64,000 bases of DNA, from NCBI RefSeq assembly GCF_003790525.1, contig NZ_CP033635.1; one strand, given 5' to 3'. Positions within the stretch are counted from its first letter, which is position 1. Each line of letters begins with the position of its first letter. The position numbers are program-made. Source of the stretch: Escherichia coli. Its GTDB lineage: Bacteria > Pseudomonadota > Gammaproteobacteria > Enterobacterales > Enterobacteriaceae. Below are positions 37,201-40,200 of this stretch, in pieces.

Positions 37201-40200
37201 CAGATGGCGAAGAAATTGTGTCCATGGTGGTGATTGACGTTCCCCGCGCCCCTGCTGAACTGGAGCGCATCGAGGAGGCAGGCAACAAGACGGAAAACCA
37301 TACCGCGCTATGGGGGTGCATCCGTTCACGCACACAGAACGGCGACAAGTGCACGATCCCGCTGTTACGTGATGACATGAAACGGCTTGGGTATGACGTG
37401 AAAAATATGCGGCGATGGTTAGCCAAACTGGAAAAAGACGCCGTGATTTACATTGATGGTGATGATGTAGGACCACTGTAAAAAGTGAGTGGCAAAAGTG
37501 AGTAATGGTGAGGTTTTTACAAAATATTAACACAATTACTCACTTTCTCACCTGTATACATGCTCAAAAGTGAGCAGTGAAAAAACACTTATGAAACATG
37601 CACATACAAAACACAAAAATCTCAAGTGAGACGAAGCGAGACGCTTTAAAAAGTGAGTAGTAAAAGTGAGAGATGGTGAGCAATGAATAAAAATCGAACA
37701 GCAGGACAAAATACCGAAGGTAAATTTATGAACACTGAAATTGAAACACTGAGCATATCAACTGCCCTTCCTGGCTGGTGGGCTAAGTTCAAAGACGACG
37801 ACGGCACGGAATGGTATAGCCCAATTGCTGCATGGGCGCTTTGTGAGATCCACCATTTCGGTACCAGGGATACTTACCGCGAAATCTTACCCGTGCTGGC
37901 CAGTGAGCTGGGCATGAGTCCGCATAGTCCTGATGAGGGAATGTGCGAGTGCCTTTATCTGCCGGATAAGAAGTTTGTTCACTGTGGTGAATCGATGGTA
38001 TTTGCCTGGTATCCGGTTAACGACAGCAGCAATAGCGGTACTCTGGAGTAAATCATGAAGGTAAACCACAAAAAGACAGATCACCGCGCCATTGACCTTA
38101 CAGAGCACTGGCTGAGGGTGGCGATAAAAATCATCGACCGCAACACGGGGGAAGGATACGCGAAAGCGCATCCCGAACTGATTAGCGCATTCATGAGCAC
38201 AGCGGCGGCAAACTTTGCCACGCTGACAGAACGGGAGATTGCCGAAGCGGAACAGGTAACAACCATCAACGTTAAAACCGGAGAGCAGACAGCATGACAG
38301 CACAGATAGCAGCTTACGGGCGGCTGGTGGACGACCCGCAGGTAAAACAGACCAGCAAGGGCACACCGATGACGCTGGCACGTATGGCGGTATCGCTGCC
38401 ATGCAGCCAGGCACAGGACGGACAGGCGACGTTATGGCTATCGGTCATCGCATTTGGTAAGCAGGCCGACTTCCTGGCTAAACATCAAAAAGGCGACGTT
38501 GCCAGCGTATCCGGCACGATGCAGGTCAGCCAGTGGACCGGACAGAACGGGGAAACGCGGCAGGGTTATCAGGTCATTGCAGACAGCGTAATCAGTGCCC
38601 GTGCTGCACGTCCTGGCGGGAGCAGACGCACAACCACAGGCACACAGGCTAATCAGCCACCAGCGGGAGGCGATGACCCTTACGGTGATGATATTCCGTT
38701 CTGAGGGGGTGACGATGGTACATGACCGCATAGCGGAAGAACTGGAGGCTAAAGGGCTGTACCGGAGAGCGGCGGCACGTTGGGCTGATGTTATGTGGCT
38801 GGTGAGCACTGACAAGGAACGCGAACAGGTGGCAAAGCGTCGCGCGGAATGTATCCGTAAGGCACAGAGGCCACCGGAGCCGCCGGATGATTTAGGCGCT
38901 CTGAAAAGGTCAGTTAATCGCACTGAAAAACAAATGGGGATAGCTGGTATTGGCAAAGCAATATGGCGCAACTACCCGCAGAAGTGAGCACACAGCCGGA
39001 GCAATCCGGCTTTTTTATGGGTCCTCCCGGTGGAGTGACCTGTCACGGGGCGGGAGCATCGCGGAAAAAGGCTGGTTTTTGCATTTTCATGGCGGCGGCA
39101 GCATGTGTGATAATTCATTGATAATTAAAAATTATTTCCGTTTTCACCTGTACAATTTTTTTTCTTCCCTGTCATTAGACCAGTTTGCAATTAATTGAAA
39201 TATATAAATAAATCAGTTTTTCACCTGCCTGGTGGAGTTGCCTGTGTCAAAACGCGTTCAGATGGCGGGATATTTATGCCGGATTTTTTCCGGCTTTTTT
39301 GTATCTGAATCTAATTAATCTGTTTTTATGATAAAAATATATTTATCTACCACTTTTATCGATCAATAATGTTTGTGGTTTAACCATTCAGGAGATTTTT
39401 AATGAGTAGCATCAATGACCTGAACACAGCTGACACAAACGGCGGATCCGTTCATCTGGACGCTAAAACAGTAATGCGCATCAAGCAGTACAGAATAGAT
39501 CACGCCGTTAATCTACCCGCGCAGCCATTGCCAGGTGTGGCGCAAATTGTCAGACACGCAGTTAACGCGTGGCTTGATAAGAATGGTTTTGCATCTGGGG
39601 GTGAGCAATGAATCGCTGGTACACCATTAAAGCGGCGGATGTTCGCGGAACGGCGGAGATATCCATCTATGAGGAAATTGGTGGCTTTGGTATTACCGCG
39701 AAGCAGTTCACGGAAGACCTGAAAGCCCTTGGCGATGTTTCACATATCAATCTGCGGATCCATTCACCAGGTGGCGACGTGTTTGAAGGTATCGCCATCT
39801 ATAACCTGCTACGGAATCATCCGGCAGACATTACGGTTTATATCGATGGCGTGGCGGCTTCAATGGCTTCGGTCGTCGCAATGGCTGGCGATCGCGTTGT
39901 TATGCCGGAGAACGCCATGATGATGATCCATAAGCCGTGGGGTATCTCTGGCGGAAATGCTGGCGATATGCGTGATTATGCTGATTTGCTGGATAAGGTG
40001 GAAACAGTGTTAATCCCTGCTTATGCCAGAAAAACAGGAAAATCAGCACAGGAAATTGCCGCCATGCTGGAAGATGAAACCTGGATGGACGGGAAAGAAT
40101 GCCTTAAGCACGGTTTTGCTGATGAATTGTTGCCATCTGTCAGAGCAATGGCGCGAATTGAATCGAAACGCACAGGAGATTTTTTACATATGCCGGAAAC

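What the first reader, a model, noticed from the sequence alone, without database searches (positions are those of the whole stretch)
38294..38987. Island-encoded SSB with host-like DDIPF tail plus a PerC-like small protein ahead of the capsid operon
The island carries its own SSB whose C-terminal acidic tip (DDIPF) is the motif that host SSB uses to recruit replisome and repair partners. A satellite SSB could compete for those partners or support its own replication. The next gene resembles PerC/Pch-type small activators and sits directly upstream of the R1 repeat and capsid operon, so it may be the late activator.
Basis: partly seen in the sequence, partly recalled or inferred. Interest (0 to 1): 0.35.

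Follow-up and report, generated by a model that had tools for sequence, protein, structure and literature searches.

The report
Satellite island's SSB and PerC genes
The two genes are real, an SSB with a host-type tail and a PerC-family protein, but they are a common, already annotated module of E. coli phage-satellite islands, and the evidence goes against PerC being the switch for the capsid genes.

Summary
Window 38294-38704 encodes a 136-aa OB-fold SSB ending ...GDDPYGDDIPF. Window 38715-38987 encodes a full-length PerC-family protein (Pfam E = 1.5e-38).

Both genes close the replication operon of a 10.9-kb Gram-negative phage-inducible chromosomal island (PICI). The island sits between roxA and phoQ in E. 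coli, the site used by the prototype EcCIEDL933. That island's SSB is 97% identical and its PerC 70% identical.

The orf80-ssb-perC block is widespread. PerC-like DNA occurs in about 1,300 of 5,426 complete E. coli genomes. PerC alleles in PICIs and SSB as a PICI replication family are both in the literature. The exact proteins are in GenBank.

- The "R1 repeat" is a lambda-type cos site, present three times.
- Two intrinsic terminators and cos lie between perC and the capsid genes.
- perC is a clean insertion between the ssb stop codon and the operon terminator.
- The same cos/capsid module (97.7% identical) occurs without perC, and without ssb.
- perC occurs in islands with other capsid types, with no capsid genes, and in lambdoid prophages.

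PerC therefore travels with ssb, not with the capsid module. The SSB is most likely a replication accessory that uses host partners through its tail. Both functions remain untested. Interest is low.

The parts
32113..32187 (.). attL direct repeat of the island. Its partner is at 42929-43003. The shared core is CGGTGTAGTTAATGGTGTAGTTAATT.
   Evidence: family D2, 75 nt, 79% identical. The flanks are roxA and phoQ.
32188..33438 (+). tyrosine integrase
   Evidence: Arm-DNA-bind_3 and Phage_integrase
33813..34001 (+). AlpA-family regulator, the PICI master activator in Gram-negative PICIs
   Evidence: PF05930, E 5e-18. The role is taken from PMC6092414 and the cf-PICI preprint.
35791..36078 (+). 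DUF4222 protein that precedes the replicase in all related islands
36075..37481 (+). RepA-like AAA_25 helicase, the island's replication initiator/helicase
   Evidence: PF13481, E 8.5e-43. RefSeq name in relatives: 'helicase RepA family protein'.
37476..37680 (.). AT-rich region with 37-nt iteron-like direct repeats (37476-37512 and 37644-37680); putative origin
   Evidence: D5; GC 0.37. The location 3' of rep matches the PICI origin rule in PMC6092414. This is inferred.
38055..38297 (+). orf80 (phrog_1231), translationally coupled to ssb through an ATGA overlap. It is conserved upstream of ssb in EcCIEDL933 and other PICIs.
38294..38704 (+). ssb: 136-aa OB-fold SSB with a short linker and the acidic tip GDDPYGDDIPF
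38715..38987 (+). perC: 90-aa PerC/Pch-family protein, predicted to be all-helical and TPR-like
38994..39017 (+). intrinsic terminator closing the replication operon. It is also the recombination joint between the left and right modules.
   Evidence: PICI cos sites are described in PMC6739421.
39112..39227 (+). two 39-nt repeats ending in TTTTCACCTG; candidate cosB R elements
   Evidence: D3. The position matches that of lambda cosB. This is inferred.
39278..39294 (+). second terminator-like hairpin, upstream of orf69 and the capsid gene
39402..39611 (+). orf69 (phrog_4934), overlapping the start of the capsid gene
39608..41524 (+). ClpP-like prohead protease / major capsid protein fusion
   Evidence: RefSeq name in relatives.
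41549..41630 (+). cos2, a direct copy of cos1, preceded by the terminator at 41532-41547
41860..41945 (-). cos3, an inverted copy
41954..42253 (+). orf99 (phrog_1561), conserved at the right end of three PICI types
42929..43003 (.). attR direct repeat

Best explanation
Window 38294-38987 holds the last two genes of the early/replication operon of a 10.9-kb Gram-negative phage-inducible chromosomal island (PICI). The island belongs to the EcCICFT073/EcCIEDL933 lineage and is integrated between roxA and phoQ of E. coli.

SSB. The SSB is the island's own single-strand-binding protein. After a helper phage induces the island, the RepA-like helicase opens the iteron origin just upstream. The island SSB then coats the exposed strands. 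Through its conserved ...DDPYGD-x-IPF tip it uses the same host partner proteins that dock on host SSB. This would let the island replicate while the helper phage is also drawing on the host SSB pool. This step is inferred from gene position, fold and tail conservation.

PerC. perC is an optional cargo gene inserted between the ssb stop codon and the operon terminator. It is inherited with ssb, not with the capsid module. It most likely acts as PerC/Pch proteins do elsewhere: a small helical regulator that remodels H-NS-type silencing complexes on host or horizontally acquired genes. It is probably not a dedicated activator of the capsid genes. This too is inferred.

The sequence between perC and the capsid genes is a terminator, a lambda-type cos packaging site with its own cosB-like repeats, and a second terminator. 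This is shown directly.
For: Island identity: att repeats, integrase, AlpA, DUF4222, replicase, iterons, cos, a capsid gene, and no lysis or tail genes. It uses the same insertion site and gene order as EcCIEDL933.

SSB:
- Pfam, TIGRFAM and PHROG hits and PDB SSB hits.
- Three of the four E. coli ssDNA-stacking aromatic residues are conserved: W54, F60 and W88 correspond to W48, F54 and W81.
- Last five residues in 109 cluster representatives: DDIPF 67, DNIPF 27, DGIPF 4.
- SSB is listed as a PICI replication family in PMC10111431.

PerC:
- Full-length Pfam match, and all 14 invariant family positions are present.
- It is a clean insertion relative to L001 and L002.
- The left block 38000-39017 is 95% identical to the PKF11 island and 87.5% to EDL933, and homology stops at the terminator.
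- The right block 38994-41628 is 97.65% identical to an island without perC.
- The cos/capsid module also occurs without ssb or perC.
- perC occurs with other capsid types, with none, and in prophages.
- The perC/cos junction seen here is absent from 5,426 genomes.

Literature: PerC alleles in E. coli PICIs are treated as accessory genes (PMC6092414; PMC11773190). Pch acts as an H-NS anti-silencer (PMC4764244).

cos identity: alignment to the lambda ends.
Against: - No experiment on any PICI SSB was found in the held literature, so the replication role is an inference.
- The SSB lacks the equivalents of E. coli W40 and H55 and has a linker of only about 22 residues. Its binding mode and oligomer state could therefore differ.
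- perC does sit at the replication/packaging boundary in three capsid lineages, which is the classical place for a late regulator. The capsid genes have no recognisable sigma-70 promoter, so some activator or read-through must exist.
- PerC homologues from EcCIEDL933 and EcCICFT073 reportedly do not affect LEE1, and the EcCIMP1 homologue represses it. The 'Pch-like anti-silencer' activity may therefore not carry over to this allele.
Confidence: 0.7

Rival explanations
1. One reading: PerC is the late activator (or anti-silencer) that switches on the capsid/packaging module from the AT-rich region 39093-39401.
For: - perC lies immediately before the packaging module in three PICI lineages with unrelated capsid genes (window; L005; L006 and L009-L014).
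- In lambdoid prophages it lies about 1.1 kb upstream of cos and Nu1.
- The region 39050-39350 is 35% GC, which is typical H-NS target composition. It has no sigma-70 consensus promoter.
- Pch relieves H-NS silencing (PMC4764244).
Against: - The same upstream region and capsid gene (97.65% identical) exist without perC, and without ssb or perC.
- perC is found in islands without capsid genes (EcCIMP1).
- Homology blocks tie perC to ssb and end at the terminator.
- Two terminators and a cos site separate perC from the capsid genes.
- In lambdoid phages perC lies inside the Q-dependent late operon, so it cannot be that operon's activator.
Confidence: 0.12
2. The SSB is mainly a weapon or shield rather than a replication factor. 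It would titrate host SSB-interacting proteins, or helper-phage recombination and replication proteins, away from the helper. Alternatively it would mask ssDNA from host defence systems.
For: - The conserved host-type tip could compete for the same docking pockets.
- PICIs generally interfere with their helpers (PMC6092414).
- ssb is facultative in this island family, as accessory or interference genes often are.
Against: - The gene sits in the replication operon next to the origin, coupled to conserved orf80.
- Nothing in the sequence distinguishes a competitor from an ordinary SSB.
- The documented PICI interference mechanisms are packaging redirection (Rpp) and capsid-size redirection.
Confidence: 0.13
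3. perC is a passive hitch-hiker, a 'moron' picked up from a lambdoid helper phage together with cos-proximal DNA. It plays no part in the island's own life cycle and acts only on host genes during carriage.
For: - In lambdoid prophages PerC occupies the moron slot between the lysis genes and cos.
- In a P22-like prophage it lies at the prophage end next to an Abi gene.
- Some islands carry a second, stand-alone perC near their right end.
- Frameshifted copies exist.
Against: - DNA similarity between phage and island copies is confined to the first ~150 bp of the ORF, at about 75% identity. There is no sign of a recent perC-cos co-transfer.
- In islands the gene is embedded in the early operon, without its own promoter or terminator, so it would be expressed on induction.
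Confidence: 0.15

Closest known systems
EcCIEDL933, the prototype capsid-forming PICI of E. coli O157:H7 EDL933 (bioRxiv 10.1101/2022.09.08.507074)
   Same: Same chromosomal site next to roxA. Same order: int, alpA, DUF4222, replicase, orf, ssb (136 aa), perC (90 aa), then morphogenesis genes. The SSB is 97.1% identical, PerC 70.5%, and DNA over 38100-39016 is 87.5% identical.
   Different: EcCIEDL933 has a DUF927 primase-helicase, where the window island has a RepA-like helicase. It also carries a full HK97-type head module (capsid, protease, portal, connectors, HNH, TerS, TerL), where the window island has cos sites and a single ClpP-capsid fusion. Its SSB ends in DGIPF.
EcCICFT073-type cos PICIs (PMC6092414, PMC6739421)
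   Same: An AlpA-controlled island that carries lambda-like cosQ/cosN with a different cosB, more than one cos copy, and phage-derived capsid genes that are not needed for transfer. Some members carry PerC alleles. The PKF11 island of this type shares the ssb-perC block at 95%.
   Different: No Rpp homologue was recognised in the window island. It has three cos copies, one of them inverted, and a different type of capsid gene.
Helper-embedded PICIs with a ClpP-capsid fusion (PMC10111431), e.g. the island in E. coli SCU-125
   Same: The cos-orf69-ClpP/capsid-cos module is 97.65% identical over 2.6 kb. An SSB of the same family is present.
   Different: That island is integrated inside the helper's terminase gene. 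It has a TerS-like DUF1441 gene, has no perC, and its SSB allele is 72% identical and ends in DNIPF.
PerC of the EPEC pEAF plasmid and PchA-E of EHEC prophages
   Same: Same Pfam family, with the conserved N-terminal ~50 residues (AEELEAKGLYRRAAARW...RRAECIRKA). All are carried on horizontally acquired elements.
   Different: PerC and PchA/B/C activate LEE1 by relieving H-NS silencing. PICI-borne homologues were reported to have no effect on LEE1 or to repress it. This host strain's LEE status is unknown and the target of this allele is untested.
SSBs of conjugative plasmids and E. coli chromosomal SSB
   Same: OB fold and a C-terminal acidic tip ending in IPF. Own knowledge: plasmid SSBs can substitute for host SSB, and the tip docks partner proteins.
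   Different: Only 29% identical to E. coli SSB over the OB domain. The linker is about 22 residues, against about 60 in E. coli SSB. W40 and H55 equivalents are absent.

Membership tests
Bacterial SSB (PF00436 / TIGR00621) | OB-fold domain scoring above the curated thresholds | tested here: met
   PF00436 scores 62.6 bits against 26. TIGR00621 scores 57.2 against 53.95. There are 25 PDB SSB hits.
Bacterial SSB (PF00436 / TIGR00621) | Aromatic ssDNA-stacking residues (E. coli W40, W54, F60, W88) | tested here: inconclusive
   W54, F60 and W88 are conserved as W48, F54 and W81. W40 aligns to S38.
Bacterial SSB (PF00436 / TIGR00621) | Disordered linker followed by an acidic C-terminal tip ending in (D/x)IPF | tested here: met
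   The protein ends in GDDPYGDDIPF. The tip is conserved across 109 family representatives.
Bacterial SSB (PF00436 / TIGR00621) | Binds ssDNA, forms a tetramer, and the tail binds host partner proteins | not testable with these tools
   This needs biochemistry. The equivalent of the tetramer-interface residue H55 is L49.
PerC/Pch family (PF06069) | Full-length profile match above the gathering score | tested here: met
   131.4 bits against 22.6, covering 1-89 of 90 positions. phrog_994 matches at E 1.5e-42.
PerC/Pch family (PF06069) | Invariant residues of close homologues (M1 D4 A7 E11 G14 R17 R18 R22 W23 D33 R36 R42 R43 C46) | tested here: met
   All are present in the window protein.
PerC/Pch family (PF06069) | Activates LEE1/ler by relieving H-NS silencing | not testable with these tools
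   Shown for Pch (PMC4764244). PICI homologues were reported inactive or repressive (PMC11773190).
Gram-negative PICI | Island of 10-15 kb flanked by att repeats at a site not used by prophages, with int and alpA at one end | tested here: met
   10.9 kb, with att repeats at 32113-32187 and 42929-43003. int and AlpA are present. Same site as EcCIEDL933.
Gram-negative PICI | Own replicase with an iteron origin immediately 3' of it | tested here: met
   AAA_25 RepA-like helicase. Iteron-like repeats at 37476-37680 in AT-rich DNA. Origin function is inferred.
Gram-negative PICI | No lysis or tail genes; packaging signal (cos or terS) related to a helper | tested here: met
   No such genes appeared among the island ORFs. 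Three lambda-type cos copies are present.
Gram-negative PICI | Induced, replicated and transferred by a helper phage | not testable with these tools
   No helper with a matching cos is present in the window.
Dedicated phage/satellite late-gene activator (e.g. lambda Q, P2 Ogr / P4 Delta type) | Co-inherited with the late operon and promoter it controls | tested here: not met
   The capsid module occurs without perC, perC occurs without a capsid module, and homology blocks break at the terminator.
Dedicated phage/satellite late-gene activator (e.g. lambda Q, P2 Ogr / P4 Delta type) | A recognisable target promoter or antitermination site directly downstream | tested here: not met
   A terminator, cos, cosB-like repeats and a second terminator lie downstream. 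There is no sigma-70 consensus on the + strand in 39093-39401. An activator-dependent promoter cannot be excluded.
Dedicated phage/satellite late-gene activator (e.g. lambda Q, P2 Ogr / P4 Delta type) | A known DNA- or RNA-polymerase-binding fold | tested here: inconclusive

The most novel reading that the evidence does not exclude
PerC-family proteins may be primarily phage and satellite proteins whose ancestral job is to lift H-NS-type silencing from the AT-rich cos/packaging boundary. They sit just upstream of that boundary in both lambdoid prophages and several PICI lineages. On this reading, their well-known role as LEE 'virulence regulators' would be a by-product. The island's ssb-perC pair would then prepare island DNA for both replication and packaging.
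Probability: 0.07. Interest if true: 0.55.

Novelty: already known. Interest (0 to 1): 0.14.

Why it matters
It matters little as a discovery. SSB and PerC genes in E. coli PICIs are already annotated and mentioned in the literature, and this island is one more mosaic of known modules.

There are three useful outcomes:
- A correction: the "R1 repeat" is a cos packaging site, not a regulatory repeat.
- A comparative argument that PerC segregates with ssb rather than with the capsid genes.
- A reminder that neither the PICI SSB nor the PICI PerC has a tested role in the satellite life cycle. About a quarter of complete E. coli genomes carry PerC-like DNA, much of it next to ssb in PICIs, so a simple deletion and transfer experiment would fill a real but modest gap.

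Tried and rejected
- Rfam scan of the whole window: no hit at gathering threshold. The R1 repeat is therefore not a known RNA family.
- tRNA scan: no tRNA in the window. The att site is not a tRNA.
- I first suspected that the repeats were P4-type immunity RNA targets. I dropped this once they aligned to lambda cos.
- I tested whether orf99 (41954-42253) is an Rpp packaging-redirection protein. It has no PDB sequence match and no named PHROG, Pfam or NCBIfam family. The question stays open.
- I tried to establish whether the EcCIEDL933 PerC is PchD or PchE, so as to use the published SOS-repression data for pchE. The papers held give no locus tags, and Porter et al. 2005 is not held. A 54-aa database entry named PchE is a different allele. 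The pchE expression data were therefore not used as evidence.
- I tested whether perC and cos moved together from lambdoid phages. Similarity is limited to about 150 bp inside the ORF, so a recent joint transfer is rejected.
- The long antisense ORF at 38438-38971 (177 aa) has no support. I treat it as a by-product of the GC-rich coding region.
- The first Pfam call failed because I gave the perC start one base off.
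Full report
**What is there**

The window is E. coli chromosome. Its left flank (potABC, pepT, roxA) is 99% identical to many E. coli genomes, and phoQ lies on the right.

Between roxA and phoQ sits a 10.9-kb island bounded by 75-nt direct repeats at 32113-32187 and 42929-43003. All its genes read on the + strand:
- a tyrosine integrase and an AlpA regulator;
- several small ORFs;
- DUF4222;
- a RepA-like AAA_25 helicase;
- an AT-rich stretch with 37-nt iteron-like repeats at 37476-37680;
- orf122 and orf80;
- the two genes of the finding;
- a ClpP-protease/major-capsid fusion;
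- orf99.

There are no lysis or tail genes. This is the anatomy of a Gram-negative phage-inducible chromosomal island (PICI), as defined in PMC6092414. The prototype capsid-forming PICI EcCIEDL933 occupies the same site and has the same gene order up to perC.

**The observation**

The ORF at 38294-38704 is an SSB. It matches PF00436 (E 4e-17), TIGR00621 above its cut-off, phrog_44, and 25 solved SSB structures. It ends in GDDPYGDDIPF.

The next gene starts at the ATG at 38715, which has a GAGGGGG ribosome-binding site, and ends at 38987. It matches the Pfam PerC family end to end (E 1.5e-38) and carries all 14 residues that are invariant among 39 homologues.

The ssb start codon overlaps the orf80 stop codon. 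The exact proteins are already in GenBank under adjacent accessions, AYW30152.1 and AYW30153.1, with these same names.

**The SSB**

It is 29% identical to E. coli SSB over the OB domain. It keeps the equivalents of W54, F60 and W88 but not of W40 or H55. Its linker is about 22 residues, against about 60 in E. coli SSB.

In the 109 near-full-length cluster representatives of this SSB family, the last five residues are DDIPF (67), DNIPF (27), DGIPF (4) or single variants. The motif DDPY/F-G/S-D-x-IPF is almost invariant. So the exact "host-like DDIPF" is not fixed: EcCIEDL933 itself has DGIPF. The tip as a whole is clearly under selection, which fits a tail that docks on host partner proteins.

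The gene lies directly after the island's helicase and putative origin. SSB is already listed among PICI replication families (PMC10111431). I found no experimental study of a PICI SSB. The replication-accessory reading is therefore an inference, though the most economical one. ssb is itself facultative: the same cos/capsid module follows a primase gene directly in other islands.

**PerC and the "late activator" idea**

Four lines of evidence bear on it.

1. The DNA between perC and the capsid genes is not a simple promoter region.
   - A strong intrinsic terminator lies at 38994-39011.
That repeat aligns to the joined ends of phage lambda: cosQ GGGTCCT, then ACG|GGGCGGGAGCAT|CGCGG, against lambda's ACG|GGGCGGCGACCT|CGCGG.
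   - R1 is therefore a cos packaging site. It occurs three times: 39019 (+), 41557 (+) and 41944 (-).
   - PICIs of this lineage are known to carry two lambda-like cos sites with their own cosB (PMC6739421).
   - To the right of cosN are repeats ending in TTTTCACCTG, which are candidate cosB elements, and then a second terminator at 39278-39294.
   - There is no sigma-70 consensus promoter on the + strand.

2. perC is a clean insertion. In two related islands the ssb stop codon is followed directly by the same terminator and cos, and the region 38994-39401 is 89-96% identical to theirs.

3. The island is a mosaic whose joint is that terminator.
   - Segment 38000-39017 (orf80-ssb-perC-terminator) is 95% identical to the PKF11 island, which has a lambda-E-type capsid and a decoration gene.
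   - The same segment is 87.5% identical to EcCIEDL933, which has a full HK97-type head module. In both cases homology stops at 39016/17.
   - Segment 38994-41628 (terminator-cos-orf69-capsid-cos) is 97.65% identical to the SCU-125 helper-embedded island, which has no perC.
   - No complete E. coli genome out of 5,426 contains the perC/cos junction seen here. All matches begin at the perC stop codon.

4. perC occurs in many other settings:
   - ssb-proQ-perC at the very end of an island with no capsid gene;
   - ssb-proQ-perC followed by a Nu1-like gene on the other strand and a second perC;
   - frameshifted after proQ;
   - at the end of a P22-like prophage;
   - in lambdoid prophages between the lysis genes and cos/Nu1, that is, inside the Q-dependent late operon;
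   - EcCIMP1, an experimentally studied PICI with a PerC-family gene, which has no structural genes.

PerC therefore assorts with ssb and independently of the capsid module. That is the opposite of what a dedicated activator and its cognate promoter should do.

**What PerC probably does**

- Pch, the EHEC homologue, activates LEE1 by displacing H-NS complexes (PMC4764244).
- The PerC-like genes of EcCIEDL933 and EcCICFT073 were reported not to affect LEE1, and the EcCIMP1 homologue represses it (PMC11773190).
- PICI PerC alleles are treated as accessory genes in PMC6092414.

I therefore favour a regulator of host or other horizontally acquired genes, expressed as the last gene of the early operon.

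The late-activator or anti-silencer idea stays alive at low probability for three reasons. perC does sit at the replication/packaging boundary in three capsid lineages. The downstream region is 35% GC. The capsid genes need some means of expression.

**Comparison, novelty and verdict**

The closest known elements are EcCIEDL933, the EcCICFT073-type cos PICIs, and the helper-embedded PICIs with ClpP-capsid fusions. The window island combines modules of all three.

Both genes are members of their families by every sequence criterion I could test. Function could not be tested. Nothing here lies outside known kinds: the gene pair, its place in PICIs and the cos sites are all described or annotated.

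The finding is real but ordinary. Its more speculative half is not favoured by the comparative evidence.

Noticed in passing
window 39019-39065 (+), 41557-41603 (+), 41898-41944 (-): One 10.9-kb island carries three lambda-type cos copies. Two direct copies flank the capsid gene. A third, inverted copy forms an 86-nt inverted repeat with cos2 across a 218-nt AT-rich spacer. Two cos sites are known for EcCICFT073; I have not seen an inverted third copy described.
   Followed up: partly
window 41630-41860, compared with L001 13322-14136: In the related RM11911 island a terminase small-subunit gene lies between cos2 and the inverted cos3. In the window only 218 nt remain there, so this island appears to have lost its terS.
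   Followed up: partly
window 39112-39150, 39189-39227, 41649-41687: These are 39-nt repeats ending in TTTTCACCTG, lying just to the right of cosN in cos1 and cos2. They are candidate island-specific cosB (TerS/Rpp-binding) elements.
   Followed up: no
window 38994-39017: The terminator hairpin after perC is the exact recombination joint between a left module (95% identical to the PKF11 island) and a right module (97.65% identical to the SCU-125 island). The resulting junction is absent from 5,426 complete E. coli genomes.
   Followed up: yes
window 37476-37512 and 37644-37680: These are 37-nt iteron-like direct repeats (AAAAGTGAGT...GGTGAG) in a 37% GC stretch immediately 3' of the RepA-like helicase gene. 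They probably mark the island's origin.
   Followed up: no
window 41954-42253: orf99 (phrog_1561) is conserved at the right end of three different PICI types (92.5% DNA identity in PKF11, 77.6% in EcCIEDL933). It has no family name and no match to a solved structure. It could be a packaging or interference factor.
   Followed up: partly
window 42386-42429, 42798-42841 and 34317-34338: A 44-nt direct repeat (89% identical) lies near the right end of the island. A 22-nt inverted partner lies in the early region. These may be binding sites for an island regulator or recombinase.
   Followed up: no
L002 (E. coli SCU-125) 1014-2006 and 12162-13283: The closest relative of the window's capsid module is a PICI inserted inside the large-terminase gene of a lambdoid prophage. 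That prophage's own cos (L002 304-430) is 79-87% identical to the island cos copies, so it is a ready candidate helper type.
   Followed up: partly
L026-L030 and L021-L025: Many PICIs carry a ProQ/FinO-family gene between ssb and perC, overlapping the perC start. ssb, an RNA chaperone and perC thus form a recurrent trio.
   Followed up: no
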